A stretch of 64,000 nt of DNA from an uncultured Candidatus Rokubacteria bacterium (GTDB taxonomy: Bacteria; Methylomirabilota; Methylomirabilia; Rokubacteriales; DASRDR01), in the NCBI GenBank assembly GCA_963805625.1, contig CAWDVE010000010.1:1728001-1792000 (forward strand), given 5' to 3'. Each line of letters begins with the position of its first letter. Position 1 is the stretch's first letter. Below are positions 33,441-51,814 of the stretch, one piece after another. The notes below the pieces were generated by a model that was not told the DNA's origin, did no database searches, and saw only the letters and a list, made by a program, of their open reading frames with translations. A program made the position numbers and the translations under genes.

Positions 33441-33877
33441 GTGTGAGGCGTAGCCCCCTTGGCCGTAGCCCCATGGCTTGTAGGGAGCCAGGGTGATCAT
33501 CAGCGACCGTGGCCGTGTCGGCCACCCCACCGGGATTATCGCAGAACTGTCACGAGAGCTCCAACCCGACGCCCAGAGCCCGCCGACGTCAGCAGGAACG
33601 CGGGGACTGACGGCCCAAGGCGCGGCAGATCGTAGGGGGGCGCCCGCCGAACAATACGTCCGACCCCGGGCATCACGCAGTGCGCTAGGCAGCACCGAGC
33701 CTGTGGACGAGCGAGAGACTCATCGACAGGCCGCGTCCGACGCCGACGAATCACTCGGATCATCCCGCGAATGACAGCGGTGACGATTACCTGCTGAGCT
33801 TGTGTCTCTAGGGCTGCCGAGGATGAGTGGCCGGTTGAGCTTCGCTGAATGCCAGTCGGGGAGTCTGGCAATCGCAC

Positions 33878-33907
33878 CGGGGGCTACGGTGTGCGCCGTA
33901 ACCCCCG
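33878..33907 (-). terminator. Hairpin immediately 3' of tRNA fragment 1
   Basis: CGGGGGTTACGG/CCGTAGCCCCCG stem; homologues at 39835-39865 and 51691-51726. Confidence 0.6.
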
Positions 33908-33915
33908 ATGGCCGT

Positions 33916-33960
33916 TGGAGCGGCCGACCGGAATCGAACCGGCGATGTCCAGCTTGGGAA
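33916..33960 (-). repeat. 3' half of tRNA-Gly(CCC), att core copy 1 (2 mismatches to copies 2 and 3)
   Basis: Minus strand TTCCCAAGCTGGACATCGCCGGTTCGATTCCGGTCGGCCGCTCCA: anticodon loop, T-arm and CCA; no 5' half. Confidence 0.9.
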
Positions 33961-34090
33961 TTTCCTTGCGGTCACCTCACGTCATGTCACTTCCCCTCAG
34001 AATTCATCACTTTCGGCCACCTTCACGATCCCCGGATCTCACGTCTTGTCATTCCTTCTCACGCCATTCGGGCAGCATCTTGGGCAGCAG
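33961..34090. repeat. att arm with 10-bp-phased TCAC repeats and 2x GGGCAGCA
   Basis: Aligns with 39918-40033 and partly with 51777-51810. Confidence 0.8.
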
Positions 34091-34526
34091 TCGCTGAGCG
34101 TCGCGTCAAGCAGGACACGTGCGTCGGAACCTCGGGGTGGCTCAATGTCGGATCGCCCGCGTCCAGAGCACTGTCGCGGATCCTGTGGTGTCCCACATTC
34201 TGACCGCATCCTCGTAAGGGCGCCCCGGCTCACCGCCACGAGTGATCCCCGCGGGCGAGCGTGACGGCTGGGCTGCTTTGATACCGTCCAAGACGTCCCC
34301 CTGCAATCCATCATACGAAGGCGGCCTCCTCCCCAGCGAGGAGGCTGCTCACTTTTGCACACCCCCTGACCAGGCGCGTTGCGAACCAGCCTCGGCGGGA
34401 GGCGCCCTTCACTGGCGACGCGCCCTGTTGTAGTCTTTCGGCTCGATAGCCCGACATCACGCCGGCAGTCTGGCCGTCGCGAGATGGAAGCGTCATGAAA
34501 GTGCGCTAACGGTGGTACGACGGGCA

Positions 34527-37500
34527 ATGGAGATACAGCCACCTCGAGGCCTGTGGTTCTCGCCCTTTCGGCTCGATCCGGATAATGCGCTGCTGTGGCG
34601 AGGCTCGGCAGAAATTCACCTGACACCCAAGGCCTTCGCCGTGCTGCACTGCCTCGTTGAGCGCCACGGCCAGCTTGTCACTAAGGACGTGTTGCTCGAG
34701 CGCGTCTGGCCCGGGACCGTGGTGGGCGACGCAGTGCTCAAGGTCTGCGTTCGGGAGATCCGGAAGGCTCTCGGCGATGAGGTCGGCGCACCCCGGTTCG
34801 TGGCCACGGTGCACCGTCGGGGGTACCGGTTCATCGCCGACGTCACCGACGTCGACCCGCGACCGCCGCGCGGTGAGGCGCCGGGGGGGTCGGCGGCGGC
34901 CGCCGCCCTCAGCAGCCGCGCCGGCTATCGCGGCCCGGCCCACTTCGTGGGCCGGGAGACGGCTTTGGGCAAGCTCCGGACAGGGCTCGATGCGGCGTGG
35001 CGCGGCGTGCGACAGATCGTCTTCGTGACCGGCGAGCCTGGCATCGGCAAGACGGGTGTGGTCGAGGCCTTTCTCGAGCGCGTCGCCTCCGACCCGCGCG
35101 TCTGGATCGCGCGAGGCCAGTGCGTCGAGACGTACGGGACTCAGGAACCATATCTGTCGCTGCTCGATGCCCTCGGCCGGCTGTGCCGCGAGACTGGGGG
35201 CGACTGGCTGGTCACCCTCTTGCGGCAGCATGCGCCCACCTGGCTGGTGCAGATGCCATGGCTCCTCGGTCCCGCCGACCGCGACGCGCTGCACCGGGAG
35301 TTGCTGGGCGCCACGCAAGAGCGCATGCTGCGCGAGATCGCCGAAGCGGTCGAGGCGCTGACTGCGGAAGCGCCTCTGGTCGTGGTCCTCGAAGACCTGC
35401 ACTGGAGTGACCCGGCGACCGTCGATCTGGTCTCACTCTTGGCGCGGCGCCCGCAGCCGGCGCGGTTGCTCCTGATCGGTACGTATCGTCCAGTCGATCT
35501 GATCGTCCGCCAGCACCCCCTCAAGGAAGTCAAGCTCGAGTTGCAGGCCGCCGGGCGATGCCAGGAAGTGTCGCTCGAGTTACTGGGTGTGGCCGCGGTG
35601 GCCGACTACCTGCGGGAACGTTTCGCCCACAACGCCTTCCCGTCAGGACTGGCGCAGGTCATCAGCCGGCGGACCGAGGGCAATCCGCTCTTCATGGTGA
35701 GCGTGATCGACGACCTCGTCGGGCGCGGACTGATCGCCATGCGCGACGACCGGTGGGAACTCCGCGCGGGGCTGGAGGAGGTCGAGGTCAGCGTGCCGGA
35801 GAGCCTGCGCCAGATGATCGAGCGGCGGATCGAGCAGCTCGGCGGCGAGGAGCGCCGCATCCTGGCGGCGGGCAGCGTGGCCGGCATGGAGTTCTCGGCG
35901 GCCTCGGTGGCGGCGGCCCTGAACCAAATGACGGCCGAGGTGGAGGAGCGGTGCGACGAGCTGGCGCGGCGGCAACTCTTCATCCGTTCGCTCGGAGCAC
36001 GCGAGTGGCCGGACCGGACGGTGGCGTCGAGCTACGGGTTCATGCATGCCCTGCATCAGAACGCGCTCTATCAGGGCATCACGCCGACGCGACGGCGGCA
36101 CTTGCACCAGGCGATCGGCGAGCGGGAGGAGATCGGCCACAGCGACCGGAGGGGGGATATCGCCGGCGCGCTCGCCGTGCACTTCCAGCAAGCGGGCGAT
36201 GACCGGCGAGCCGTGCGGTACCTGGCGGAGGCGGCGGACACGGCGAGTCGCCGACACGCCAACGCCGAGGCGGTCGGGTACGTCGCGCGCGCGCTCGAGA
36301 TCGCCGAGCGGTTACCGGACGGCGAGCGCGTGGCCTCGCACCTGGGGCTGCTCAAGCAGCTCGGCCTCCTCCGCCGCGCCATGGGCGACGTGCGCGGTTC
36401 GATTGAGGACTTCACGGCGCGCGCCCGCTACGCGCGGGAGCACGGCCGCGGCGATGAGGAGGTGCGGGCACTGTTGGAGCTGGGCGGCGCCCTCTCCTGG
36501 GTCGATCGCGACCGTAGCCTGGCCGCTGTCGAGCAGGCCCTCGCCCTCGTGCCTCAACTGCGTGACAAGGCATTGCAGGCGCACGTCAATGGTTCCCTCG
36601 CGTTCCAGCGCATCCTCTCGCGCGGATGGCGGGACGAGGACGCCAAGACGTGCCGTCTTTCGTTGGACATCGTGCGGCGCACCGGTGAGCGACGGCATCT
36701 CAGCCTACACGTTGGCCGCTATGCACTTCTGCAGAGCCACCGGTCGGAGTACCGGGCAGCGTGCCGCACGGCGGAGCAAGGCCTGCGGCTGGCGGTGGAG
36801 GTGCGCGACGCCTATCACTACATGACCGCTCAGTTCTATCGCGCGTGGGCGTTGCTGCATCTCGGGCAATGGGGGGAGCTGCGGCGCGTCCTCCGCGACG
36901 GACTCGAGATGGCGGAGCGCAACGGCCATCACCTGTGGGCGCGGGCATTCCGATTCCACACGGCATGGCTGCTCACGCACGCGGGTGACTTCGCGAGGGC
37001 TCGTGCGCTCTGCGAGCAGGAGCGGCAGCCCGGTGAGGAAGTCCAGCTGGGGGAGAACCTGGGCTCGATCGTCCTCGGGTTCGCCAATGTCGGGTCGAGC
37101 CGGTTCCCCGAAGCCCTGCGCGCCTTCAAGGAGGTCACCGGCCGGTTCGACAGCGGACCGGTCCTGATGGACTGGATCCTCAACATGCCGCTGCGTCTAG
37201 GACTGGGAGAGTACTGGCTCGTGCGCCGACAGTTCGGGCGGGCCCGCGAAGAGATGAAGGAGCTGTGTCGGCTCGCCACCGCCCCGGGTGAGCGCACGTA
37301 CCTCGCCCTCGGTCATCAGGGCCTGGCCGAGGCGGCTCTGGGCGAGGGCGACCGAGCCATGGCCGAACGCGAGGTGGCCGAGGCCCTCCGCGTGCTCGAC
37401 GGGTTCGAGGCGCCGGTGGCGGCGTGGCGAGTCTGCGCCACCGCCGCGCGTGTCGAGGAGGCACGTGGGAGCCTGTTGAGAGCGAAGGCCTACTGGGGGC

Positions 37501-37703
37501 GAGGTGCCGCGGTGCTCGAACGACTGGCAACCTGCCTAGAGGATGACGGCGATCTGTACCACTCCTTCCTGGCCCAACCCGCGGTTGAGGCCGTGCGCCG
37601 GAACGCGAAACGCTCGGCCGACGATGCGCCGGCAAAGAGCCTAGCCCCAGGCCGCGGCGGCCGGCGCCCCGGCTCGTCACGCCGCCGTCAGCGTCTGCCG
37701 TAG
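34527..37703 (+). CDS. Winged-helix (OmpR/CadC-type) + AAA/STAND ATPase + TPR-like transcriptional regulator
   Basis: LTPKAFAVL..EIRKALGD..FVATVHRRGYRF; FVGRE, GEPGIGKT, VLEDLHWSD, TEGNPLF. Confidence 0.92.
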   Translation: MEIQPPRGLWFSPFRLDPDNALLWRGSAEIHLTPKAFAVLHCLVERHGQLVTKDVLLERVWPGTVVGDAVLKVCVREIRKALGDEVGAPRFVATVHRRGYRFIADVTDVDPRPPRGEAPGGSAAAAALSSRAGYRGPAHFVGRETALGKLRTGLDAAWRGVRQIVFVTGEPGIGKTGVVEAFLERVASDPRVWIARGQCVETYGTQEPYLSLLDALGRLCRETGGDWLVTLLRQHAPTWLVQMPWLLGPADRDALHRELLGATQERMLREIAEAVEALTAEAPLVVVLEDLHWSDPATVDLVSLLARRPQPARLLLIGTYRPVDLIVRQHPLKEVKLELQAAGRCQEVSLELLGVAAVADYLRERFAHNAFPSGLAQVISRRTEGNPLFMVSVIDDLVGRGLIAMRDDRWELRAGLEEVEVSVPESLRQMIERRIEQLGGEERRILAAGSVAGMEFSAASVAAALNQMTAEVEERCDELARRQLFIRSLGAREWPDRTVASSYGFMHALHQNALYQGITPTRRRHLHQAIGEREEIGHSDRRGDIAGALAVHFQQAGDDRRAVRYLAEAADTASRRHANAEAVGYVARALEIAERLPDGERVASHLGLLKQLGLLRRAMGDVRGSIEDFTARARYAREHGRGDEEVRALLELGGALSWVDRDRSLAAVEQALALVPQLRDKALQAHVNGSLAFQRILSRGWRDEDAKTCRLSLDIVRRTGERRHLSLHVGRYALLQSHRSEYRAACRTAEQGLRLAVEVRDAYHYMTAQFYRAWALLHLGQWGELRRVLRDGLEMAERNGHHLWARAFRFHTAWLLTHAGDFARARALCEQERQPGEEVQLGENLGSIVLGFANVGSSRFPEALRAFKEVTGRFDSGPVLMDWILNMPLRLGLGEYWLVRRQFGRAREEMKELCRLATAPGERTYLALGHQGLAEAALGEGDRAMAEREVAEALRVLDGFEAPVAAWRVCATAARVEEARGSLLRAKAYWGRGAAVLERLATCLEDDGDLYHSFLAQPAVEAVRRNAKRSADDAPAKSLAPGRGGRRPGSSRRRQRLP

Positions 37704-38126
37704 CCCTCTCGGGCTGGGGAGCGTCGCAAGGGGCGCGACGGTCAGGTGACCGGTGGCGGGAGGCGAGCACGCCCGGGCCGCAGATGCTCGCCGGGGGCGG
37801 TCATCCCGAGCCGCTACAGTCGCCGCCCGGAGTCTCCGGGCGTCTGTGTTTGCGCGCCCAGGATCCGCCTGGCCGCCGTGCAGTGCGGAAGCGTCGCAGA
37901 TCGGAGGTGGAGCGTCTCCGACGCAATACGGCATTCACTAATTCCACCCTTGCTGACCAGGCGATCGGCCCTGGCTCCGAAAGGTCTACAGCACCGCCAA
38001 CGAATTTGGTGTGAGCGCCGTGTCCGCTCGCCCGATGAGCCGCGGTAGACCCGCGGTCGAGATTGCCATCCGTCTCCACGCCAGCGCCATTCCAGCCCGA
38101 CCAGGATAGCCGTGACACCCAGCTTC

Positions 38127-38165
38127 CTTACCCGATTCTAACCGAAACCTTACGCGGTCCTCATG
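38127..38165 (+). promoter_or_regulatory. Four direct repeats at 11-bp period (wHTH-type binding array)
   Basis: CTTACC-N5-CTAACC-N5-CTTACG-N5-CTCATG. Confidence 0.65.
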
Positions 38166-38224
38166 ACGGGGCCGCACGGGTTCCCTACCCTCGACGTCGA
38201 GTGCAATGACCAGAGAGAGCCCGA

Positions 38225-38446
38225 GTGACGCCCGCTGACGAGACCCGACGCGCGCTACCCGTGGAACGGGCGTTCGTCGTGCACCTGCGACCGGAGGCGC
38301 TCCCCGAGGAGGGGCTACTGGTGGGCCGCGTCGAGCACGTCGTGTCCGGCCGGAGCGAGCATTTCGATTCGCTGCCCGAGTTGCTCGCCTTCCTAGGCCG
38401 GACGGTGAGGGTAGCAGAGGGGCTCTGCTTCAAGGAAGCGAGGTGA
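38225..38446 (+). CDS. Small hypothetical protein (GRVEHV.SG motif)
   Basis: RAFVVHL..GRVEHVVSGRSEHFDSLPELLAFL. Confidence 0.75.
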   Translation: MTPADETRRALPVERAFVVHLRPEALPEEGLLVGRVEHVVSGRSEHFDSLPELLAFLGRTVRVAEGLCFKEAR

Positions 38447-38519
38447 GGGAACCAACGCGGGCCGACGTAATGACGCCACGTCCTCTTCACCACTCACACA
38501 GAGAGAGGAGCTTGCAACC

Positions 38520-39317
38520 ATGAAGAAGCAGATGGTCTTGTCCACCGTAGCCGCCGTTGGCGCGCTGTCGGTTCTGCTGTCACTCCCGGTTCGCCAGGCA
38601 CACGCACAAGCGGTATACCAGGCCGCCGGGCCGACCGCGGCCTCGATTCAGAGCACGGTGGACGAATTCCGTGATGCCCTGGGAGACAACCACGGCAACG
38701 TGGCGCAGCATTTCGACGGAGGTCGCCGCGAGATCAACTGGGACGGTAACCCTACGACGGACGTGACAACACCCCCGATCACGCCGTTCAACACGTTCCT
38801 GAACAGCCGCGGCGCTCAGTTCACCACGCCGGGGACCGGCCTTTCCCAGGCCCCTCCATCGGGCGGCCCTCAGGGCGGCCTTGCCGTGCTCTTCGACAAT
38901 CCCGCTTACGCCACCACCTTCAGCACGTTCAGCGCCCCGCGCCTGTTCACGCCGGTAGGCAGCCGGATCACCGAGGCCTTGTTCTTCGAGGCCGGCACCA
39001 ATGGAGCGAACCCGGCTGCGGTGACTGGCTTCGGCGCGGTCTTCACGGACGTTGACGGGCCGGAAGCGGGAAAGTCGGAGAAGCATAGTACCCGGATCGA
39101 GTACTTCGACGCCGATGGCCATCGGCTCTTCACCGGGCTCGTCCCGGCCTCGCCTGGCGATGGGACCTTCTCCTTCTTCGGCATCGTGTTCGACGACCCG
39201 CGCATCGCTCGGGTGCGGATCACGACCGGCGACTCGCGCCCGGGCCCGGATGACGATAAGAAGGACATCGTCATGATGGATGACTTCATCTACGGTGAGC
39301 CGCAACCTTTGCCATGA
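38520..39317 (+). CDS. Secreted hypothetical protein
   Basis: GAGGAG RBS; signal peptide ending AHA/QA; RREINWDG, GFGAVFTDVD, MDDFIYGEP. Confidence 0.85.
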   Translation: MKKQMVLSTVAAVGALSVLLSLPVRQAHAQAVYQAAGPTAASIQSTVDEFRDALGDNHGNVAQHFDGGRREINWDGNPTTDVTTPPITPFNTFLNSRGAQFTTPGTGLSQAPPSGGPQGGLAVLFDNPAYATTFSTFSAPRLFTPVGSRITEALFFEAGTNGANPAAVTGFGAVFTDVDGPEAGKSEKHSTRIEYFDADGHRLFTGLVPASPGDGTFSFFGIVFDDPRIARVRITTGDSRPGPDDDKKDIVMMDDFIYGEPQPLP

Positions 39318-39395
39318 GCGACGCGGCGGTGGAGCGGCCCAACAGGAGCTCGGGCGACTCCTGACGTTGGACCCCGCCTCTTATCCGACAGGCCT

Positions 39396-39420
39396 GGAGG
39401 GGGGCACTCTGCCCCCCTCC
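39396..39420. repeat. Perfect 11-bp-stem hairpin (REP-like or terminator)
   Basis: GGAGGGGGGCA-CTC-TGCCCCCCTCC. Confidence 0.6.
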
Positions 39421-39872
39421 CCCCTGCTTTCGGCGTCACTCCGGGCTTCCCCGCAGAACGCAGCGAGCCTCGAATCGGAAGGGGGAAGCACTGCTTTCGT
39501 ACCGTCCAAAGCCCCCCCGCAACCATGAACGGCACACAGTCCTCCGGCTGACGACGGCGTTGCTGCTCATCGAGCACGGAGCGTTCGACTTCGCCATGTA
39601 CAAGGACTGGAGTGGCTACGCCGCGACAATCGGGAGCAGCCCATTCTTGCTCGCTCACCATCCGCTCCGTCCCTTCGCCGCTGGTTCGAATGCGCCCGAC
39701 AGCGACGTCCAACCTCGAGTCTGGACGTCGCAGGTCGAGGGAGCTGCCCAAACGAGCTCATCTGCATGGGATCTCATTGGAAGCATGGGCGAAATTCGGT
39801 GTGAACGCAGGCGCAAAAGCAGCAGCAACGCGAACGCGGAGCTGCAGGTGCGCTGCAACCCCGCGTCGTCGT

Positions 39873-39917
39873 TGGAGCGGGCGACCGGAATCGAACCGGC
39901 GACGTCCAGCTTGGGAA
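39873..39917 (-). repeat. 3' half of tRNA-Gly(CCC), att core copy 2
   Basis: TTCCCAAGCTGGACGTCGCCGGTTCGATTCCGGTCGCCCGCTCCA; identical to copy 3. Confidence 0.92.
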
Positions 39918-40085
39918 TTTTCTTGCGTGGTCTCACGAAATGTCACTTGCCATCAGAATTCATCACTTGCGCCCATCGGCCCGATCCCGCGATCTCACAC
40001 CTTGTCACTCCTTCTCACGCCAGTTGGGCAGCAGCCGCCGGACGCCGCGTCATGCTGCCTAGTCGGCCCTCCACCGCTCCGTCCC

Positions 40086-40874
40086 TCACCTCATGCTTTC
40101 CCGCACGTCGACCAGCACCTGGTCGTAGACGCCGAGACGGACGAAGCCCAGGCGGGGAAACTCGAGATCGAGGATGACGGCCAGGGAAAGCGCCATGGTG
40201 GCCGCGAAGGCCGCCATGTGAACCCAGTTCCGCCCCCGACCCGCCGCCATACTGTGCCCGGAGAGCAGGGAGCTCACGAGCATCAGCGCGATGAGCATGG
40301 CGTAGATGATGCCCGGGGGGTGCGTCTGGGCGGCGACGGTCCGGGTGGTGGCGATGTCGATCATCGCGTTGAGAGCGGGAAGAACCAGCATCCGCGTGGG
40401 CTGGGAGCCCTCGCGTTGGCTAACGGCGACGGCCTGGGTCCAGATCTCTCCCTGCAGTGCCGCGGCCCGGGCCAGCTCCGCCCTCGCCGCCGAGACGTCC
40501 GGGAGGGCTCGGTACGCCGCGAGTCGCGCGTCGACGTATTGCCGGAACTTCTCCCGAAGCGCCGGCTGGGCCTCGGGCGGAAGCACGGCGAGCCGCAGGT
40601 AGGCGGTGCCGATCGCGTTGGCTTCCTCGACGACGAGCTGGCGCCTTGCATCCCATCGCGACGCGGCGCCCGAAAACGTGAACGCGATCAGGAGCCCCAG
40701 GAGGGCGAAGACCGCGCCGTCCATCACGCCGACCTCCGCCCGTGCCCCCTGAGGATCACCCGCCGCGCGCCATCGGCCGATACCGCGGCCGATCTCCAGG
40801 AAGAGGAGCATGCCGACGAACACGCCGACAGTCAAAGACAAGCCCAGAAGCACGGAGTGCCGGTACGCCATCAC
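40086..40874 (-). CDS. DUF4239/bestrophin-like membrane protein
   Basis: LLGLLIAFTFSGA..RRQLVVEEANAIGTAYLR; ILDLEFPRLGFVR. Confidence 0.85.
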   Translation of the reverse strand: MMAYRHSVLLGLSLTVGVFVGMLLFLEIGRGIGRWRAAGDPQGARAEVGVMDGAVFALLGLLIAFTFSGAASRWDARRQLVVEEANAIGTAYLRLAVLPPEAQPALREKFRQYVDARLAAYRALPDVSAARAELARAAALQGEIWTQAVAVSQREGSQPTRMLVLPALNAMIDIATTRTVAAQTHPPGIIYAMLIALMLVSSLLSGHSMAAGRGRNWVHMAAFAATMALSLAVILDLEFPRLGFVRLGVYDQVLVDVRESMR

Positions 40875-41169
40875 GGAGACGAGAGGCGGCTCGCCAAACC
40901 GGCTGCACGTGTCGCAGCGCGAAGGTCATCAAGGGCCGCTCGTTTCATGGTCTCCTCTCGTGGCGAGGGCGGTTTCATCGGCTCTGCCAACGGTTCTATG
41001 CCGGGTACCGAACGCAGGCTTCAATAGGGGGCGCAGCGCCTCACTGGATCGCCTGGTGCGATGCGCGTTGGTACGTTCCGGAGCGCCTCGGCTGTGAACG
41101 GCCTCCGCGCGGGCCGCCTCCTCGACCACGTCGTCGGCCAGCGCGCTTCACGAACGAACGCCTGGCATT

Positions 41170-41427
41170 ACTGCGCGTTGTTCTTGGCGTCTTGAGTCTT
41201 CTGCTGAAGAAACTGCTCCTCCGCGGTCGTCCGCCCCGGCAAGATCAGCTTGGGCGACTGGGGCTGATAGCACGTCTGCTGGCTTGCCCACATCTGGCAC
41301 TGCTGCTGGTTGACGACCTCTTGCTCCGGGCTCTGCCCCTGCGTCGGGTACACAAGGCCACGACCACCGCCGTGCTGAGGATGCGCGCGGTGTCCCTGGC
41401 CCATGTCCTCGATGGCGGCCGCGCCAT
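41170..41427 (-). pseudogene. Fragment of an exported protein (YPxQGQSxEQ motif)
   Basis: Signal-like start, then VYPTQGQSPEQ..QCQMWASQQT in another frame. Confidence 0.45.
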
Positions 41428-41531
41428 GTTCAGGATGGTTCGTCCACCTCCGGTGGAGGCAGGGTGAGCCAGCGACCCGCGTACAGTCCTCCATGATAGA
41501 CTGTGGGACTAAGTAAAACGAGTCGAGTGAG

Positions 41532-41981: not shown

Positions 41982-42145
41982 CTCCCAGCCGTCACGCCGC
42001 CCTTCCTGGGGAGCGACGGAGGACCCGCCGTCCTCGGGAGATGCCTCCCAAGCCGAGGCGCACGCGATGTGACCTTGAACCCACGATAGCGCCAGGGCAT
42101 CCGGAACCCCAAGGAAACCCGGAACGAATTCATGATTCGGTGTAC

Positions 42146-42976: not shown

Positions 42977-43017
42977 GGCGATCGGCCTCCCCCGGGGTCA
43001 GCTCTTTCCGTTTCCGT

Positions 43018-44193: not shown

Positions 44194-44213
44194 GGCTGTT
44201 CCCCCTTCCGGTT

Positions 44214-44909
44214 CTAGATGACCAGGTGTCGTTCGACGTGCTCCCGCGCGCCGGCATCGCTGGCGCGCCCGGTCTCGACGACCGTCCCCCCCTTTAGGAC
44301 GGCATAGCGGTCCGCCAGCGCCAGCGCGAACCCGACGTTTTGCTCCACGAGCACGATCGTGAGGCCGTGCGCCCGCCGCTCCTCCGCCAGGACCTCTGTG
44401 AGCCTCGTGATCATGGCGGGTTGGAGCCCTTCGCTAATCTCGTCCACGAGGACCAGACGCGGACGGGTGAGGAGCGCCCGTCCGATGAGGAGCATCTTCT
44501 GCTCCCCCCCCGAGAGCGTCCCCGCGCGCTGTTGCTGCCGCGCCTTCAACACCGGGAACCAGCGCGCGATCGTCTCGAGCCGCGCGTCGAAACTGGCCCC
44601 GTCTCGCAGCGCGAGGCGCAGGTTCTCCTCCACGGTCAGGTCCTGGAAGATCGACTTCTCCTGGGGGACGTAGCTCACCCCGAGGCGCGTGATGCGGTAG
44701 GGCGGCCATCCGGTGACGTCCTGCCCGAGAAGCTCCACGCGGCCTTTCTTGGCCGGCAGGAGCCCCATGATCGTCTTGAGGAGCGTCGTCTTCCCCATCC
44801 CGTTCTTCCCGAGGATGGCGAAGATCTCGCCGCGCGGGACGTCGAGGGCGACGCCGTGGAGAACCGGTGACTCGCCGTAGCCCCCCTCGAGGGCCTGGAT
44901 GGTGATCAT
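44214..44909 (-). CDS. ABC ATP-binding protein (LivF/UrtE-like)
   Basis: GKNGMGKT, LSGGEQKML, VDEISEGLQP, LVEQN. Confidence 0.92.
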   Translation of the reverse strand: MITIQALEGGYGESPVLHGVALDVPRGEIFAILGKNGMGKTTLLKTIMGLLPAKKGRVELLGQDVTGWPPYRITRLGVSYVPQEKSIFQDLTVEENLRLALRDGASFDARLETIARWFPVLKARQQQRAGTLSGGEQKMLLIGRALLTRPRLVLVDEISEGLQPAMITRLTEVLAEERRAHGLTIVLVEQNVGFALALADRYAVLKGGTVVETGRASDAGAREHVERHLVI

Positions 44910-46711
44910 GGCTTGCCGCCGATGTAGATCGTCCGGACCAGCTCCGAGTCGGCCACCTCCGCGAGCGGGCCATCGAGGAGGATCTTCCCCTGGTGGAGCA
45001 CCACGAGCCGCGTGCTGATCTCGCGGACGAAGTCGAGGTCGTGCTCGATGAGGAGCAGGCAGAGCCGGTGGCTCCGGGCCAGCTCCCGCAGCACGCTGCC
45101 GATCGCCGCCCGCTCGTCGCGCGTGAGCCCCGCCGTCGGCTCGTCGAGGAGGAGCACCGTCGGCTCGAGCGCGAGCACCATCGCAAGCTCCAGGGCCTGC
45201 TTCGCCCCGTGCGAGAGGTGGCCGGCCGGCTCGTTCAGGAGCGGCAGGAGCCCCGAGACCTCGACCGCGTGGAGGGCCGGCTCCGGCAGCGCCAGCGTCC
45301 GGGAGCGCCGCCAGGGCGACGCTGGCGTCCGGTAGGCGCGCGCCACGCGCAGGCAGTCGAGGACTGTCAGGGCGTCGAAGACGTTCGGCGTCTGGAACTT
45401 CCGGCTCACGCCCAGCGCCACGCACTCTTGCGGCGGCAGGCCGTCGATCCGGCGGCCGCCCACCCGCACCTCGCCGCTCGACTGCTCGCGGCCGTCCGCG
45501 ATGCAGCGGAGGAGTGTGGTCTTGCCGGCGCCGTTCGGCCCGACGATCCCCACGACCTCGCCCCGTCTCGCCTCGAGGTTCACCCTCTCGAGCACCTGCA
45601 GGCTCCCGAACCGCTTCGACACGCCACGCAACTCGAGGACCGGCCCGTCCTCGCTCGCGGTGGGGGCCGCGCCGTTCGCTCTGGGAAGGGCGCGCAGCGA
45701 GGCGGTGTGCGCCGCCGGGCGCGCGAGAACCGGCCTCCGCGTCTGCGCGAGCGCACGGACCAGCCGCGACACGCCAGTGACGAGCGCCGGCACGACCCCT
45801 TGTGGGAGGTAGACGACGACCAGCACGAAAGCGACGCCGACGAAGAGGAGCCAGACGAAAGGGAGGTTGCCGCCGAGGACCGCCGAGACGTAGTTGATGC
45901 CGATCGTGCCGAGGATCGGGCCGCCCAGCGTCCCGCGGCCGCCTAGCGCCGTCCAGACGACCATCTCCGTCCCGAAGGTGAAGTCGCCGTAGTTGTGAGC
46001 CGCGACCGTCCCGAAGAGCACGTAGAAGGCGCCGGCCAGCGCCGCCACCGCGCTGCAGACCGCCATCAGGCCGATCTTCAGGCGCGAGGTCCGGAGCCCC
46101 AGGTACCGGCAGCGCTCCTCGTTCTCGCGGATCGCGACCAGCATCCGCCCCGCGTCGCTCGTGACAAGCACGTAGGCGCCGACCGCCACGAGGAGGAGGA
46201 GCCCTCCCGAGATCCAGAACCACTCTTCGCCCGAGAGGAACGGCGCTGGGATCGGCAGCCCGCTGCTCGACCCCGTGTATGCGCCGCCGGAGAGGATGAT
46301 CTGCGTGAAGACCACCGGGAGCGCCAGCGTCACGATCGCCGCGTAGATCGGCGACGCGCGGTCGAAGAAGGCGAGCCACCCGACCCCTGCGCCCACCAGC
46401 GCCGCCGCCGCCATCGCCACGACGATCGCCCCCGCCGTCGCGAGCAGCCCCTCGACGTAGTAGGCGAGCGCGAGGGCCACCGTGTAGACGCCGATGCCGA
46501 AGAACGCCGACTGGCCGAACGTCAGGACGCCCGTATAGCCCCAGAGAAGGTCGACCGTGATCGCCGCGATCGCGAAGAAGAACGCCTGGGCGAGGATCTG
46601 CTGCGCGTAATCATCGAGAACAAACGGGCTCGCGGCCAGGGCCGCGGCCAGGAGCGTTGTAACGGTGAGTATGCCTTGCCACCGAGCGGCCATCCAAGTG
46701 TCCACTGGCAC
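44906..46711 (-). CDS. Fused ABC permease + ATP-binding protein (LivM-LivG / UrtC-UrtD-like)
   Basis: DLLWGYTGVLTFGQSAFFG, AIRENE, GPNGAGKT, LSHG, LLDEP, IEHD. Confidence 0.92.
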   Translation of the reverse strand: MPVDTWMAARWQGILTVTTLLAAALAASPFVLDDYAQQILAQAFFFAIAAITVDLLWGYTGVLTFGQSAFFGIGVYTVALALAYYVEGLLATAGAIVVAMAAAALVGAGVGWLAFFDRASPIYAAIVTLALPVVFTQIILSGGAYTGSSSGLPIPAPFLSGEEWFWISGGLLLLVAVGAYVLVTSDAGRMLVAIRENEERCRYLGLRTSRLKIGLMAVCSAVAALAGAFYVLFGTVAAHNYGDFTFGTEMVVWTALGGRGTLGGPILGTIGINYVSAVLGGNLPFVWLLFVGVAFVLVVVYLPQGVVPALVTGVSRLVRALAQTRRPVLARPAAHTASLRALPRANGAAPTASEDGPVLELRGVSKRFGSLQVLERVNLEARRGEVVGIVGPNGAGKTTLLRCIADGREQSSGEVRVGGRRIDGLPPQECVALGVSRKFQTPNVFDALTVLDCLRVARAYRTPASPWRRSRTLALPEPALHAVEVSGLLPLLNEPAGHLSHGAKQALELAMVLALEPTVLLLDEPTAGLTRDERAAIGSVLRELARSHRLCLLLIEHDLDFVREISTRLVVLHQGKILLDGPLAEVADSELVRTIYIGGKP

Positions 46712-46755
46712 TATAACTCGGTTTCGCGCGACAATGCGGAACGGCGGGGGTGTCT

Positions 46756-47640
46756 ATGAGCGATCGAAAGGGACGCGACGAGGCGGTCGTGAAGATCGCC
46801 TGTGTCCAGATGGCGCCGGTCGTCGGCGAGAAGGAGCGGAACGTCCGTCGGAGCGTCGAGCGGATCGAGGAGGCCGCCGGCGCGGGCGCCGGTCTGATCG
46901 TGCTGCCCGAGCTGTGCAATTCGGGATACGTGTTCGACTCCCGCGAGGAGGCCTTCGCGCTAGCCGAGGAGATCCCGGACGGCCCCACCTGCCAGGCCTG
47001 GATCGAGGTCGCCCGCAAGCACGGTCTCCACCTAGTCGCCGGCATCGCCGAGCGGTACGGGCAGGTCCTCTACAACGCCGCCGTCGTCATCGGGCCATCA
47101 GGCTTCGTCGGGAAGTTCCGGAAGAACCACCTCTGGAACGAGGAGAACCTCTTCTTCGAGCCGGGCAACCTCGGCTTCCCCGTCTTCAAGACGCCAGTAG
47201 GTCGTATCGGGACCTTCATCTGCTACGACGGCTGGTTCCCCGAGAGCTATCGGCTCTGCGCCCTGCAGGGCGCCGATATCGTCTGCATCCCCACCAACTG
47301 GGTACCCATCCCGGGGCAGGCGAAGAACCGAGAGGCGATGGCCAACATCCTCGTCATGGCCGCCGCCCACGCCAACTCCGTCTTCGTCGCCGCCGCCGAC
47401 CGGGTCGGCACCGAGCGGGGGCAGCCCTTCATCGGCCAGAGCCTCATCGCGTCGTATACCGGCTGGCCCATCGCCGGCCCCGCCAGCCCCGACACGGAGG
47501 AAATCCTCTACGCCGAGGCCAACCTCGCCGACGCCCGCCGCAAGCGCAACTGGACCGAGTACAACCAGGTGCTCCGCGACCGCCGCACCGACGTCTACGA
47601 TGAGATGCTCGGCGCCAAAACAACCAGGGGGTGGTACTGA
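46756..47640 (+). CDS. Nitrilase-superfamily carbon-nitrogen hydrolase
   Basis: E-K-C triad: LPELCNSGY, FRKNHLW, ICYDGWFPE. Confidence 0.92.
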   Translation: MSDRKGRDEAVVKIACVQMAPVVGEKERNVRRSVERIEEAAGAGAGLIVLPELCNSGYVFDSREEAFALAEEIPDGPTCQAWIEVARKHGLHLVAGIAERYGQVLYNAAVVIGPSGFVGKFRKNHLWNEENLFFEPGNLGFPVFKTPVGRIGTFICYDGWFPESYRLCALQGADIVCIPTNWVPIPGQAKNREAMANILVMAAAHANSVFVAAADRVGTERGQPFIGQSLIASYTGWPIAGPASPDTEEILYAEANLADARRKRNWTEYNQVLRDRRTDVYDEMLGAKTTRGWY

Positions 47641-47825
47641 TGACGTTGCCGCCGCTCAAACACGTGGCCGAACTGGCCGGCTACCCGCTGCCAGAAGCGG
47701 ATCTCAAGCAGGTCGCGTCGATCCTCGAGGGGATGATGGAGGACATCCAGAAGCTCCGTGATCTGGACTTGCCCGACGACGTCGAGCCGATCCTCACCTT
47801 TCAGGTCGACCCCTGGAAGGCGTGA
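47640..47825 (+). CDS. Small GatC/AtzG-like amidase partner (61 aa)
   Basis: Overlaps the upstream stop (TGATG) and ends 1 nt before the amidase start; helical, with LDL...EP..F tail. Confidence 0.65.
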   Translation: MTLPPLKHVAELAGYPLPEADLKQVASILEGMMEDIQKLRDLDLPDDVEPILTFQVDPWKA

Positions 47826-47826
47826 G

Positions 47827-49245
47827 ATGAGCGCTGCCGAGTGGCCCTGGCGATCTCTGGCCGCCGCCGCGAGCGCCGTCGAGTCGCGCGCCGTCTCGCC
47901 TGTTGAGCTGACCCAGGCCTGTCTCGACCGGATCGAGAAGGTCGACCGTGCCGTGCACGCCTTCGTCTCCGTCGATGCCGAGGGGGCGCTCGAGGCCGCC
48001 CGGGTCGCCGAGCGTGAAATATTGGCCGGCCGCTACCGAGGCCCCCTGCACGGCATCCCCATCGGCATCAAGGACAACTACGACACCGTCGGCGTCCCCA
48101 CCCGCAACGGCTCCCAGGTCTTCGTCGACCGGATGCCGTCGTCGGACTCGACGGCCTGGGCGCTCTTGCGCGACGCCGGCGCCGTGCTCCTCGGCAAGAC
48201 CGTGATGAGCGAGGCCGCCTGGGGCGTCGACTTCCCGCCTGTGCGGAACCCTTGGGACGTGCGGCGCAACCCCGGCCTGTCGTCCGGCGGCTCCGGAGCC
48301 GCCGTGGCCGCCGGGATGTGCTTCATGGCCATGGGGTCGGATACCGGCGGGTCCATCCGGATCCCCGCTGGGCTCTCGGGCGTCGTCGGGTTGAAGGCCA
48401 CCTACGGCCGCGTCTCGAAGGCCGGCGTGATGCCCCACACCTGGTCTCTGGACAGCGCCGGGCCGTTGACCCGGCGGGTCGAGGACGCCGCGTTGACGCT
48501 CCGGGTGATCGCCGGCTTCGACCCGCGCGATCCCGACTCGGCCAACATGCCCGTCGGCGACTACCTCGCCTCGTTGAAGAAGGGCATCCGCGGCCTGCGC
48601 GTCGGCGTGCCGCGCGAGCACTTCTGGGACCGGATGGAGTCTCGCGTCGAGCCTGTCGTCCGCCAGGCCCTACGCGATCTCGAGGGGGCCGGCGCGCGGG
48701 TGGAGGAGGGCTCCATCCCCCACATGGCCGGCGCCCTCGGCGCCATCCTCGTGACCGAGATGGCGTCGGTCACCGCCTGGCACGACACGTATCTGCGGCA
48801 GCCCGACCGGCGTGCCCGGTACACCCCAGAGGTGCGCGCCCTCATGGACGCCGGGAAGTTCATCTTCGCCACTGACTTCCTCAAGGCTCAGCGCCTGCGC
48901 CGGGTGCTGACTGATGAGGTGCGCGCCGCCTTCGCCGGCGTCGACGTCCTTGCGACGCCGACATTGCCCTTGTGCGGCTGGGAGGTTTCGCAGAGCCACG
49001 TCGAGATCGCCGGCCAGCCCGAGCACGTGCTCCACGCTTGCTGGCGTTACACGCACCCCTGGAACCTGACCGGGCTGCCCGCGCTGTCCGTGCCGTGCGG
49101 GTTCGCGGACGGGCTCCCCGTCGGCCTGCAGCTCGTCGGCAAGCCATTCGACGAGGCGACCATCTTACGGGTGGGGCAGGCGTATCAGCAGACCACCCGC
49201 TGGCACGAGCAGCATCCGGCCGACCCCGCGCCGGGCGCGGCCTGA
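47827..49245 (+). CDS. Amidase-signature family amidase
   Basis: GPLHGIPIGIKD, GLSSGGSGAAV, GSDTGGSIRIPA, GLPVGLQL. Confidence 0.95.
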   Translation: MSAAEWPWRSLAAAASAVESRAVSPVELTQACLDRIEKVDRAVHAFVSVDAEGALEAARVAEREILAGRYRGPLHGIPIGIKDNYDTVGVPTRNGSQVFVDRMPSSDSTAWALLRDAGAVLLGKTVMSEAAWGVDFPPVRNPWDVRRNPGLSSGGSGAAVAAGMCFMAMGSDTGGSIRIPAGLSGVVGLKATYGRVSKAGVMPHTWSLDSAGPLTRRVEDAALTLRVIAGFDPRDPDSANMPVGDYLASLKKGIRGLRVGVPREHFWDRMESRVEPVVRQALRDLEGAGARVEEGSIPHMAGALGAILVTEMASVTAWHDTYLRQPDRRARYTPEVRALMDAGKFIFATDFLKAQRLRRVLTDEVRAAFAGVDVLATPTLPLCGWEVSQSHVEIAGQPEHVLHACWRYTHPWNLTGLPALSVPCGFADGLPVGLQLVGKPFDEATILRVGQAYQQTTRWHEQHPADPAPGAA

Positions 49246-49265
49246 TTGTTGTTCGAGGAGTCGCA

Positions 49266-49985
49266 ATGTCCGACTGGAAGCTGGACCGGAAGAGCGCGTA
49301 CGTCCCCGACGTCATCCCCGACAGCGACCTCGCCATGTATCGCAAGGCGGGCTTCGGCCATCCCATCGGCTGGGGCCGCAAGGTCGGCATCGCCGTCGTC
49401 GACATGACCCGCGCCTTCACCGAGGACCGGTTCGCGTTGGGGAGCGCGAAGATGGGGCAGGTGGCGCTACGTGGGATCTCGCTGTTGCTCGCGGTGGCCC
49501 GGCCGGTCGGAGTGCCGATCTTCTTCACCAAGATGGCGCCGTTCAAGAACCGCACGGAGGCCGGCCGCTGGTTCGACTCCTGCCCCGGCATCTTCGGCCG
49601 GGACGACGACCCCGCCGCCCATGAGTCCGTCGAGATCCCGCCCGAGATCGCCCCACGTCCCGACGAGCCCGTGATCGTCAAGGGGAAGCCGAGCGCTTTC
49701 TTCGGGACGCAACTCCACAGCATGCTGACCTACCACAACGTCGACACGCTGATCATTACCGGCATGGTCACCTCCGGCTGCGTCCGGGCGACCGTCGACG
49801 ACGCCTTCTCATACGACTACCGGGTGATCATTCCCGAGGAGTGCGTCGCCGACCGCGCCGAGGTGCCGCACCGGGTGAACCTGTTCGATATGGAGATGAT
49901 CAGTGCGGATGTGATCGAACTGGAGGAAGTGCTGCGGCATCTGCGCGGGCTGAACCGTGCCGTGTACGCGGAGGCCAGGCTGTAG
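49266..49985 (+). CDS. Isochorismatase-family cysteine hydrolase (N-carbamoylsarcosine/maleamate amidase-like)
   Basis: VVDM, KGKPSAFFGT, TSGCVRATVDDA. Confidence 0.9.
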   Translation: MSDWKLDRKSAYVPDVIPDSDLAMYRKAGFGHPIGWGRKVGIAVVDMTRAFTEDRFALGSAKMGQVALRGISLLLAVARPVGVPIFFTKMAPFKNRTEAGRWFDSCPGIFGRDDDPAAHESVEIPPEIAPRPDEPVIVKGKPSAFFGTQLHSMLTYHNVDTLIITGMVTSGCVRATVDDAFSYDYRVIIPEECVADRAEVPHRVNLFDMEMISADVIELEEVLRHLRGLNRAVYAEARL

Positions 49986-50243
49986 TGCCGGTCCTCATTG
50001 CTCATGCTGCGACTGCGCCTTTTGCCCCAGGGCCGACTTTGTCGCCTTCTCCATGTCGGGGCGATTCACCTCGGTCTTCCTGCGCCTTGCGTCTGACACT
50101 CCACACGGAACACGTTGGTCCACGCGGGATGTTGTTCGGAGCCATGGCCCAGGCGCTTGACGAACGACCGCTGCTCTTCCACTGGATGGGTTAAACAGAA
50201 GGGACAGGGGGTCAATCTCGGGCCCGGACGGGAGCCGTGCACG

Positions 50244-50648
50244 TCACGGAATGATGGAGAAGCGTCCGAGCTTGGCGGGGCGATAAACACCGAAGTCCCG
50301 GTGGTCGAGCGTGAACACCTTGTTGACCCCATCGCGCTCCGCCACCGCCACCAGGCTCGCATCTGCGAGGTCCATGGGCAGATCCCGGTACTTCCGCATC
50401 AGCGCCCGCATGCGGGGCGCGTCCGATGCATCGAGTCCAAGGAGGTGCAAGCGCCCGCTCTCGATCAAGCTCCACAACTCGTCTTGCGCCTCCGTGGAGA
50501 ACCCGAGGAGGTACATGGCCTCGGTCACCACCGGCCAGGTTGTGCCCAACGGCGGCCGCAACGCGCGCAACGCCTGGACGCACTCGCGATGGCGCCTATC
50601 GTCCCGGTGGAGGATGGCCACCAGGGGGCCGGCATCAACGAGGATCAT
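50244..50648 (-). CDS. PIN-domain toxin (VapC-like)
   Basis: MILVDAGPLVA..VVTEA..PMDLADASLV..FTLDHRDF. Confidence 0.92.
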   Translation of the reverse strand: MILVDAGPLVAILHRDDRRHRECVQALRALRPPLGTTWPVVTEAMYLLGFSTEAQDELWSLIESGRLHLLGLDASDAPRMRALMRKYRDLPMDLADASLVAVAERDGVNKVFTLDHRDFGVYRPAKLGRFSIIP

Positions 50649-50905
50649 GCGCGGCGCTTGGACAGGAGGAGTGAACGGAAGTGGTCGCCGGTGCGCTCCG
50701 ATAGATCCGGCGGCCCGCCCTCGGCACACCCGATAGCGTCCTTCCACATCTCGAAGGCCATTGGTCCCTGTCGGGTCTCGGATTCCGCGGCGGCGAGGCG
50801 CTGAATGGCGTCACGGATGACCTGTGATCTGGTCCGCCCCGTGCGGCGCGCCAGGGAGCGGACCGCGCGCTCCGTCTTCGGATCGAGTCTCACACTGATC
50901 GGCAT
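50645..50905 (-). CDS. Ribbon-helix-helix antitoxin
   Basis: ISVRLD..LARRTGRTRSQVIRDAI; ATGA overlap with the PIN gene. Confidence 0.88.
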   Translation of the reverse strand: MPISVRLDPKTERAVRSLARRTGRTRSQVIRDAIQRLAAAESETRQGPMAFEMWKDAIGCAEGGPPDLSERTGDHFRSLLLSKRRA

Positions 50906-50915
50906 GGCCCCGCCC

Positions 50916-50949
50916 TCCTGTAGACGTATGACGGTATTGTACTACAGGA
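50916..50949. promoter_or_regulatory. Inverted repeat upstream of the TA operon (probable operator)
   Basis: TCCTGTAG-N18-CTACAGGA. Confidence 0.55.
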
Positions 50950-51556
50950 CAGGCGGGCACCGCCCCGCGGGAGGTCTCAGGCTCGCTCGCTGAGGACCAC
51001 CGAGAGCTGAGCGTCGTTCGCGCCGGTTACTCATCGGGTTCATGTCTTTGGACAGGCCGCCGCTCACCCTCGTCCATCATTGCGGCCGGCGCGCGTTCGG
51101 AGCGGGCGCGGGGGCTGCTCGCCGCACTGTTCTCTGGCGACGATCCAGCGCCTCAGGCTGGGGCGACACAAGACCCGTGAGACTTCCGCGCGACATCCCG
51201 GTGGCGAGTTCGCACGAGCCCCGGGCGATATCGGGTCCCGGGTAACCCGCCAGACCGGGAGCCAACTTCGCCAGACGACCTTTGAATCCAGTGAGCATCA
51301 CGTGACCATCCCACGTCATGACGCCTGTTCGGTCGGTAGGAAGTCCTTCCTCGTTTGCCCCCTCAACGGTATAAGTCCTCGGCAGCAAAGGCGGGAGGCG
51401 GGGACTGAAACTCCCGCTGTTGGGATCCCAACTTTCAAGCCGCACTTCTTCCGGCTGATCCTCGCCCGCGGGCCCAGAGCACAAGCTGAGAGCTCACGGA
51501 GAGAGCGCGCAGGGGGGGCCGTCCGCTAATAGTTGCCGTCGCGCGAGCGCTCCGCC

Positions 51557-51600
51557 GGTCACCAAACGGTCACCATCCGATGGTGACTTTCTTGGTGACC
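51557..51600. repeat. Integrase arm-type-like repeats
   Basis: GGTCACCA-N3-GGTCACCA, then inverted TGGTGAC-N5-TGGTGACC. Confidence 0.7.
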
Positions 51601-51731
51601 CAGTCGACTCCGTGTCCGGGAAGTGCGCGATAAACAAGGACGACGCGCTGGGCCAGAAGAATGAATGCCAGTCTGGAAAAATAGCAATCGCATCGGGGGC
51701 TACGGCGTGCGCCGTAACCCCCGATGACCAT

Positions 51732-51776
51732 TGGAGCGGGCGACCGGAATCGAACCGGCGACGTCCAGCTTGGGAA
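51732..51776 (-). repeat. 3' half of tRNA-Gly(CCC), att core copy 3
   Basis: Identical to copy 2; its flank 51662-51731 aligns with 33846-33915. Confidence 0.92.
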
Positions 51777-51814
51777 TTTCCTTATGCCTGCCTCACAAAC
51801 TGCCACTTTCTGAG

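What the first reader, a model, noticed from the sequence alone, without database searches (positions are those of the whole stretch)
33846..51810. Tandem array of integrase-less cargo cassettes delimited by tRNA-Gly(CCC) 3' halves
Seen: three same-orientation 45-bp tRNA-Gly 3' halves (33916, 39873, 51732). Each starts exactly at the anticodon loop and has homologous non-tRNA sequence on both sides. They bound units of 5957 and 11859 bp, each holding self-contained functional modules. I recognise no tyrosine/serine recombinase, replication or transfer gene anywhere in the window. Known: tyrosine integrases cross over in tRNA anticodon loops and duplicate the 3' half, and tandem insertion leaves attP-like junctions. 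Inference: this is a serially built array of related elements that are either non-autonomous (mobilised in trans, functionally integron-like with a tRNA half as the cassette boundary) or have lost their integrases. The intact tRNA should lie to the right of the window. The leftmost copy, farthest from it, is the one with 2 mutations, which fits an age gradient. Copy 1 still has the element-type flank on its left, so the array may continue leftwards.
Basis: partly seen in the sequence, partly recalled or inferred. Interest (0 to 1): 0.88.

Follow-up and report, generated by a model that had tools for sequence, protein, structure and literature searches.

The report
Integrase-less gene cassettes stacked at tRNA-Gly
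Behind a glycine tRNA gene, this uncultured bacterium, likely a Rokubacterium, carries about 100 kb of metabolic gene blocks separated by spare copies of the tRNA's back half; the blocks have no detectable DNA-inserting enzyme of their own and are likely left-overs of integrating elements that visiting relatives would still move, a known kind of gene-collecting hotspot seen here on an unusual scale.

Summary
Observation confirmed and extended. Three 45-bp tRNA-Gly(CCC) 3' halves lie at 33916, 39873 and 51732. The intact tRNA is 660 bp right of the window and a fourth half lies 16.8 kb left of it; an arm remnant lies 31 kb left. No tyrosine or serine recombinase, whole or remnant, was found in the array. 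Relatives hold the parent: a tRNA-Gly(CCC) element with a PF12167/PF00589 integrase directly behind the same kinds of arm repeats. This genome has no member of that family. The units are therefore best read as integrase-deleted derivatives stacked by tandem accretion (CIME-like). Most ends are damaged or mismatched. Yet one integrase-less end is 95-98% identical over most of its length between genomes about 81% alike in neighbouring genes. Sister arrays at tRNA-Lys share whole att-to-att units in different neighbourhoods. A visiting integrase probably still moves units; this is inferred, not shown. Known in kind (CIMEs, Dehalococcoides ssrA islands, tycheposon islands). Unusual here: the scale, and integrase-less units in the tRNA-proximal slot. 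Interest 0.42.

The parts
51777..64000 (.). Unit 1 (12.9 kb in all; it runs 661 bp past the window's right end): Qrc-like cytochrome c / molybdopterin / Fe-S / NrfD cluster, IS481/IS3-like transposase, rhodanese, LysR, HicAB-like pair starting about 63805. Beyond the window lie its type-B proximal end (hairpin, one TGCTGCCC arm, an inverted repeat of the core's GCTGGACGTC, no integrase) and the intact tRNA-Gly(CCC), the integration target, at G000:C10:1792662-1792736, minus strand
60250..61275 (+). DDE transposase (rve_3), an insertion sequence, not a site-specific recombinase
51777..51815 (-). Truncated distal arm of unit 1 (about 35 nt of the P_B arm family)
51732..51776 (-). Copy 3: exact tRNA-Gly(CCC) 3' half
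51545..51731 (-). Type-A proximal end of unit 2: two hairpins and GGTGACCA-type arm repeats, the arm type of the intact element in G217
39918..51731 (.). Unit 2, 11.8 kb: VapBC, isochorismatase, amidase, CN-hydrolase, branched-chain ABC transporter, HicAB-like pair (41468-42074), bestrophin-like gene; its two ends carry different arm types
39918..40035 (-). Distal P_B arm of unit 2, one of the two TGCTGCCCA repeats missing
39873..39917 (-). Copy 2: exact tRNA-Gly(CCC) 3' half
39700..39872 (-). Type-B proximal end of unit 3, arm degenerate; inverted repeat at about 39703-39730
33961..39872 (.). Unit 3, 5.9 kb: 1058-aa winged-helix/AAA regulator and two unassigned ORFs; the only unit whose two ends are of one arm family
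33961..34090 (-). Complete distal P_B arm of unit 3 (tandem TGCTGCCC repeats about 110-130 bp from the core)
33916..33960 (-). Copy 1: tRNA-Gly(CCC) 3' half with two substitutions
33680..33915 (-). Type-A proximal end of unit 4: two hairpins and a TGCTGCCTAG arm; homologous to the sequence behind the tRNA in G009 and G008:C23
1..33915 (.). Unit 4 (50.6 kb in all; it starts 16.7 kb left of the window): sulfatases, sensor kinases, glycoside hydrolases, ABC transporter; probably several fused units. Left of the window lie a fourth 3' half (G000:C10:1711242-1711285, 1-bp deletion, distal arm replaced by an IS-like fragment) and a coreless arm remnant (about C10:1696642-1696728), about 250 bp beyond a glycine-reductase-like cargo that ends in an intact junction in G003:C8

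Best explanation
This is a stack of integrase-less gene blocks behind tRNA-Gly(CCC), likely built by repeated site-specific insertion at the anticodon loop, whose blocks likely descend from tyrosine-integrase elements that lost the enzyme and would now move only when an intact relative visits the cell. Shown: the halves, the arms, the absence of recombinase, and the intact parent type in relatives (tRNA, hairpin, arm repeats, convergent PF12167/PF00589 integrase, cargo, matching arms, tRNA half). Inferred steps: (1) an intact element crosses over in the 7-nt anticodon loop, restores the tRNA and pushes older units outward; (2) its integrase is deleted while cargo and att ends stay; (3) a later intact element excises together with neighbouring units (cis accretion) or acts on their att ends in trans, the composite enters another cell and integrates, and the helper then leaves or decays, so that an integrase-less unit ends up next to the tRNA; (4) att-independent deletions and IS insertions fuse and erode units. 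The route between cells is not known; one intact parent carries terminase-like genes, which hints at phage packaging.
For: No PF00589 (24 hits genome-wide), PF00239 (9) or PF07508 (6) hit lies between C10:1.69 and 1.81 Mb; a profile of the cognate family finds nothing from 40 kb left of the window to 2 kb right of it (best E 4.2). G217:C11 is a complete 14.05-kb element with GGTGACCA arms at both ends and a full-length integrase; G195 has a full-length one behind the tRNA; G144 and G047 have TACTGCCCA arms followed by the integrase C-terminus. Decay series: among 37 tRNA-Gly(CCC) sites with 400 bp or more downstream in the own family, 0 intact, 1 frameshifted, 2 C-terminal remnants, 34 none. 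Site variability: the host gene piece 38.4 kb left of the window lies under 0.5 kb from the tRNA in G009 and 103 kb from it here; G014 inserts about 8 kb before the piece 39.1 kb left of the window. Movement without integrase: four of the five 200-nt bins behind the tRNA are 95-98% identical (fourth bin 88%) in both G012 and G003:C6, against 81-82% in the neighbouring backbone. Two adjacent tRNA-Lys units of G000:C7 occur separately, att to att, in G003 (95.8%) and G008 (93.4% plus 91.0%). Arm motifs are more conserved than their spacers by eye across 22 distinct distal arms, three or four of them truncated.
Against: No circle, empty junction or excision was seen; only assembled contigs were available. 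No full-length integrase with exactly the TGCTGCCCA arms was found: the G144 gene is cut by its contig start and only positions 319-383 of the family profile match in G047. No integrase remnant exists in this array itself, so descent rests on arm type and position. The att-to-att sharing comes from the tRNA-Lys arrays, not from the Gly units of the window, and could also arise by loss from a larger ancestral array; identity near the Lys tRNA reaches 82-89% (one 258-bp stretch 95%), so the margin there is smaller. G003 and G008 are 5-7% contaminated bins with two tRNA-Gly(CCC) loci each, so within-bin comparisons are not single lineages.
Confidence: 0.68

Rival explanations
1. A maintained integron-like system: the units are made and circulate as integrase-free cassettes, and an integrase supplied in trans inserts and excises them at tRNA anticodon loops, at several tRNAs across the lineage.
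For: 15 of 16 tRNA-proximal units examined in the own family show no trace of the cognate integrase, contrary to the streptococcal rule that CIMEs lie farthest from the target (PMC7563491, passages). Only 4 of 57 tRNA halves in G000 have any integrase match within 2 kb downstream. The tRNA-Lys arrays hold 15 halves over 96 kb (G003) and 13 over 66 kb (G009), many 100% identical, with units of 1-6 kb common and one PF00589 remnant between them. Whole units recur between genomes.
Against: G000 has no member of the cognate family (0 of 1 for PF12167; no match at 1e-60; best 33% partial identity). Three of four Gly units have a truncated or mismatched end. Units are large and mosaic, and G003 shows deletions that ignore the cores. 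Frameshifted and remnant integrases sit in the expected slot in relatives.
Confidence: 0.2
2. The array is a dead relic. Units entered with their own integrases long ago; present differences between genomes come from homologous recombination at the 45-bp cores or in shared cargo, from IS activity and from deletion.
For: Damaged arms; deletions and fusions away from the cores in G003:C8 and C6; a 13.4-kb block 97-99% identical between G003:C6 and C8 that runs into a backbone gene and does not stop at an att site; recombination between identical cores would also give att-to-att deletions (established knowledge).
Against: The jump in identity from about 81% to 95-98% at the tRNA, motif-wise conservation of arms, and different integrase-less units in the proximal slot of different genomes point to continued site-specific entry.
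Confidence: 0.1
3. The repeats are an assembly artefact.
For: G000 is a 28-contig assembly with 6.26% estimated contamination; no laid contig spans the whole stretch; 4.2 kb of unit 4 is 99.5% identical to a stretch on contig C12.
Against: Each copy has different flanks and unique cargo. Run X1 holds 99-100% identical pieces across 33000-50725, one running from inside copy 2 into unit 2, and run X9, of another study, joins the copy-1 arm to unit-3 cargo (X1 may be the source sample). The same junction family occurs in other genomes and in 19 metagenome contigs.
Confidence: 0.02

Closest known systems
Cis-mobilizable elements (CIMEs) and tandem accretion of ICE/IME-derived islands in streptococci (PMC5704250 and PMC7563491, passages read)
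   Same: Elements without integration or transfer genes that keep attL and attR, stacked in tandem at a tRNA 3' end, carrying metabolic cargo of 1-13 kb.
   Different: No ICE or IME parent is shown here (no relaxase among the genes examined of the intact parents). In S. salivarius CIMEs were always farthest from the target and tandems held 2-3 elements; here the proximal unit also lacks integrase and sister arrays reach 13-15 halves.
Tandem ssrA genomic islands of Dehalococcoides (PMC3146451, passages read)
   Same: Many direct repeats of the target's 3' end within about 100 kb; 15 islands without integration module, proposed to be cis-mobilizable; strain-variable respiratory cargo.
   Different: tmRNA target, T-loop crossover, serine recombinase DsiB, 20-bp repeat; 16 islands there keep the module, whereas none of the 37 family-level sites here has an intact integrase.
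Tycheposon islands of Prochlorococcus (bioRxiv 10.1101/2020.12.28.424599, passages read) and additive flexible islands of Alteromonas (PMC4898812, passages read)
   Same: tRNA-anchored islands built by successive insertion, with partial tRNA copies and fragmented integrases deeper in the island.
   Different: Tycheposons are defined by their own integrase, often with replication genes; the units here have neither, and keep 150-250-bp arm regions.
Integrons (recalled)
   Same: An ordered, strain-variable row of recombinase-free gene units growing from one end.
   Different: No IntI was found near the array; boundaries are tRNA halves with direct-repeat arm sites and not attC hairpins; units are multi-gene blocks of 6-50 kb.

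Membership tests
CIME | No functional integrase or other recombination gene | tested here: met
   no tyrosine or serine recombinase in the array
CIME | No conjugation or mobilisation module | tested here: inconclusive
   No relaxase or T4SS family among 63 window ORFs, one adjoining ORF and 19 flanking ORFs scanned against Pfam; no dedicated six-frame relaxase search was run
CIME | Retains attL and attR sites | tested here: inconclusive
   Cores are kept at all four units; arms are of one family at both ends only in unit 3, truncated or mismatched in units 1, 2 and 4
CIME | Derived from an ICE or IME by deletion | tested here: inconclusive
   Parent-type integrative elements found; no relaxase among the 8 G217 genes scanned, terminase-like genes instead, so ICE/IME status is not shown
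CIME | Mobilised by an adjacent functional element | not testable with these tools
   Needs an excision or transfer assay; indirect signs
Integron | Integron integrase next to attI | tested here: not met
   No PF00589 match within C10:1.69-1.81 Mb
Integron | attC sites as cassette boundaries | tested here: not met
   Boundaries are tRNA-Gly 3' halves with direct-repeat arms; no attC model search was run
Tycheposon / autonomous tRNA island | Own tyrosine or large serine integrase at the proximal end | tested here: not met
tRNA anticodon-loop tyrosine-integrase islands | Direct repeat of the tRNA 3' part starting at the 7-nt anticodon loop, with arm-type repeats on both sides | tested here: met
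   Copies match tRNA positions 31-75; same layout as the integrase-bearing G217 element

The most novel reading that the evidence does not exclude
Rokubacteria run a genome-wide, integron-like gene-collecting system built on tRNA genes: integrase-free cassettes with standardised arm ends circulate between species and are inserted at tRNA-Gly, -Lys, -Arg and -Asp by rare visiting helper elements, possibly phage-packaged. This would be a concrete mechanism for the unexplained cell-to-cell gene-content variation reported for this lineage.
Probability: 0.22. Interest if true: 0.78.

Novelty: new variant of a known kind. Interest (0 to 1): 0.42.

Why it matters
Rokubacteria were reported to have unusually variable gene content between cells, with causes left unclear (PMC5712423, passages read). 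This locus accounts for about 100 kb of variable DNA at one tRNA, and the same genome has 57 tRNA halves, so tRNA-anchored accretion may explain part of that variation. The parent integrase family and its arm types are now identified, which makes mobilisation of integrase-less units testable on plasmids without culturing the host. As a mechanism it lies close to CIMEs and tandem tRNA islands, so the gain is in scale, lineage and testability and not in a new chemistry.

Tried and rejected
Integrase remnants in the array: tblastn with 16 G000 integrases and candidates from relatives, and two home-made profiles, found nothing credible; one weak match (E 0.002-0.005) lies on the antisense strand of the sigma-54 regulator at 19523-21526 and was rejected. 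SSV-type split integrase: rejected, no integrase pieces flank the cores. The integrase next to a truncated core in G008:C5 was considered as cognate and set aside, because the core is cut and the gene's 3' end carries a different repeat. A 155-bp stretch at 50055-50209 that recurs near integrases and IS ends in G008 could not be assigned. Circles or empty junctions: two read-laying runs gave contigs only; the joints at the cores are explained by related junctions of other organisms. The pattern scan of viral contigs gave one unrelated phage-like contig with its own integrase. The arm-pattern search over 251 phylum genomes found 2 and missed known cases because of its spacing limits. Age gradient: only weakly supported. 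Literature: a search for Rokubacteria + genomic island + integrase + tRNA gave 0 papers; the searches listed nothing on such arrays in this lineage (listings only). The library lacks most subscription papers, and no supplements were read.
Full report
Observation. The three 45-bp copies are at 33916, 39873 and 51732 with 2, 0 and 0 mismatches and no match in 100 shuffles, spaced 5957 and 11859 bp. ARAGORN finds no tRNA in the window. The window is G000:C10:1728001-1792000; below, negative numbers and numbers above 64000 extend the window's coordinates along C10. On the genome, the intact tRNA-Gly(CCC) lies on the minus strand at 64662-64736, a fourth half at -16758 and a fifth on contig C17. 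The halves are positions 31-75 of the tRNA and begin at the first base of the anticodon loop. The organism is probably a Rokubacterium: of 5 public genome records with the same junction, 4 are titled Candidatus Rokubacteria and 1 Methylomirabilota. This is inference from relatives, not a label of G000.

Anatomy. Read from the tRNA outward there are four units of 12.9, 11.8, 5.9 and 50.6 kb, with GC 0.67-0.68 against 0.70-0.72 in the flanking backbone. Cargo is respiratory, catabolic, transport and regulatory, with a VapBC pair, two HicAB-like pairs and an IS transposase. Each junction has a distal arm before the core and a hairpin plus arm repeats after it. Unit 3 has ends of one arm family (TGCTGCCC; the proximal copy degenerate). 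Unit 2 has GGTGACCA arms at one end and a single TGCTGCCCA at the other. Units 1 and 4 have truncated distal arms. An arm remnant without core at -31358..-31272 lies just beyond a glycine-reductase-like cargo that ends in an intact junction in G003:C8. In G009 the tRNA is followed within 0.5 kb by the gene piece found here at -38407, so the variable region spans about 103 kb.

No recombinase. Six-frame family searches gave 24 PF00589, 9 PF00239 and 6 PF07508 matches in G000, none in C10:1.69-1.81 Mb. A profile of 70 of the 120 listed homologs of the cognate family found nothing in the array. PF12167 has no match in G000, and the best match to an intact parent integrase is 33% over part of the protein, at tRNA-Arg(TCT). 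G000 is 99.91% complete by marker genes but has 28 contigs, so an unassembled copy is not excluded.

The parent. A search with an intact homolog (P0001) matched 11 of 251 phylum genomes at E 1e-60 or better, not G000, and 1 of the 14 other genus members, where it is frameshifted. Some of these hits sit at tRNA-Val or tRNA-Leu or near no tRNA. G217:C11 shows the full layout: tRNA-Gly(CCC), three GGTGACCA repeats, a convergent integrase, cargo, matching repeats and a tRNA half 14.05 kb away. G195 has a full-length integrase in the same slot. G144 and G047 have TACTGCCCA repeats followed by the integrase C-terminus. The three full-length proteins scanned carry PF12167 and PF00589. Both arm types of the window therefore belong with this family, by sequence type and position. 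G217's element also carries terminase-like genes (weak Pfam matches).

Decay series. Of 38 tRNA-Gly(CCC) sites that I fetched in the own family, 37 had 400 bp or more downstream: none had an intact integrase, 1 had a frameshifted one, 2 had C-terminal remnants and 34 had nothing; 15 of 16 tRNA-proximal units had nothing. These are the sites I fetched, not all sites. In other families 11 of 29 sites had a match (one weak and distant), but five genomes there were picked through integrase or arm searches, so the rate is inflated.

Signs of movement. Four of the five 200-nt bins behind the tRNA (type-B end plus HicAB-like pair) are 95-98% identical, the fourth 88%, in both G012 and G003:C6, while neighbouring backbone genes are 81-82% alike. 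G003:C8 carries other units before a cargo shared with G003:C6, with deletions that ignore the cores, so both site-specific and unspecific events occur. The same genome G000 has 57 tRNA halves, 4 of them with an integrase match within 2 kb downstream, against 9 of 63 tRNA calls (8 distinct genes). About 6 halves were examined on the wrong side because ARAGORN called their tRNA on the other strand, and one profile was built partly from G000's own integrases. At tRNA-Lys(CTT), arrays of 15 halves (G003), 13 (G009) and 9+4+3 (G000, three contigs) occur, with one PF00589 remnant in G009 and none in G003's array. Two adjacent G000 units recur separately and att to att in G003 and G008. This evidence concerns the sister arrays; loss from a larger ancestral array could also produce it.

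Reads. Only assembled contigs were served. They support the assembly piecewise and show unit-3 cargo at 94-98% identity in several soil and unlabelled runs, but no specific circle or empty junction.

Mechanism. I commit to tandem accretion of integrase-deleted elements that are moved only with a visiting intact relative (0.68). A maintained integron-like cassette system gets 0.2, a dead relic 0.1 and misassembly 0.02. The halves, arms, missing recombinase, parent layout and variation among genomes are shown. Deletion of the integrase as origin, helper-driven movement and the transfer route are inferred.

Comparison. It works like CIMEs (definition and accretion model in PMC5704250 and PMC7563491; passages read), like the Dehalococcoides ssrA islands, 15 of which lack the integration module (PMC3146451, passages), and like tycheposon and additive islands (bioRxiv 10.1101/2020.12.28.424599 and PMC4898812, passages). 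PMC9897764 notes that such tRNA fragments are expected to be pervasive (passages); PMC5812530 added nothing specific (passages). Strict CIME membership is unproven because an ICE or IME parent is not shown. It is not an integron by the tests run. It differs from the streptococcal case in that integrase-less units fill the proximal slot and sister arrays are much longer. No paper on such arrays in Rokubacteria was found in the searches; no supplements were read. This scan's notes list 58 similar findings in at least 56 genomes. They are unchecked and were used only to judge how common the pattern is. Only the tallies include G038, which is unpublished.

Verdict. Real, larger than reported, and a variant of a known class. 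Interest 0.42.

Noticed in passing
G000:C7:227-38007; C2:25-24918; C20:63853-66701; tRNA at C12:5135-5210: tRNA-Lys(CTT) array: 9 halves on C7 (spacings 570 bp to 13.8 kb), 4 on C2, 3 on C20, with recurring arm types and no PF00589 match on C7 or C2; an integrase C-terminal remnant sits behind the half at C20:65133. G003 and G009 have 15 and 13 halves. It is a better test case for cassette shuffling than the Gly array.
   Followed up: partly
G000:C12:122799-159611; C16:7879-78048; C11, C10, C13, C14, C16, C17, C19: Further arrays: tRNA-Arg(TCT) with an intact integrase at its head and three halves behind; tRNA-Asp(GTC) with five halves and strongly conserved flanks; about 12 dispersed tRNA-Glu(CTC) halves.
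   Followed up: no
G000:C17:21010-21375: A complete Gly junction (distal arm, exact core, type-B end) on another contig, near two tRNA-Arg(TCT) halves and IS copies, upstream of an integrase at tRNA-Phe; cargo nearby is 94% identical to cargo beside a Gly junction in G008.
   Followed up: partly
window 39703-39730 and G000:C10:1792491-1792518: Type-B ends carry an inverted repeat made of two copies of the tRNA core segment GCTGGACGTC around a 6-bp spacer, resembling a symmetric att site; also in G003, G012, C17 and three metagenome contigs. A terminator or a second recombination site; unexplained.
   Followed up: partly
window about 5480-9666 and G000:C12:179603-183776: A 4.2-kb block (glycoside hydrolase 39, glycoamylase, superoxide dismutase) is 99.5% identical to a stretch near the integrase at tRNA-Leu(CAG): a recent duplication between islands or an assembly duplicate.
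   Followed up: no
window 52371-59968: Qrc-like respiratory cluster (multiheme cytochrome c, molybdopterin subunit, Fe-S protein, NrfD, cytochrome c, EB_dh-domain protein) carried as cargo in unit 1; the NCBIfam Qrc matches are below cut-off.
   Followed up: no
window 50055-50209: A 155-bp non-coding stretch, single in G000, recurs in five G008 loci next to integrase starts, an integrase remnant or IS ends.
   Followed up: partly
L001:10133-14774 (21-26 kb left of the window): Glycine/sarcosine/betaine reductase component B genes as cargo, 87-92% identical to a junction-bounded unit in G003:C8.
   Followed up: partly
L142:11071-12890 (G217:C11): The intact parent-type element carries terminase-large-subunit-like and DUF5681 genes, a hint of a phage-satellite lifestyle.
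   Followed up: partly
window 12417-14879 and 24702-28295; 15050-16734 and 22484-23978: Unit 4 holds two diverged copies of a sulfatase gene (the second apparently frameshifted) and of adjacent lipoprotein-like genes, 70-82% alike.
   Followed up: no
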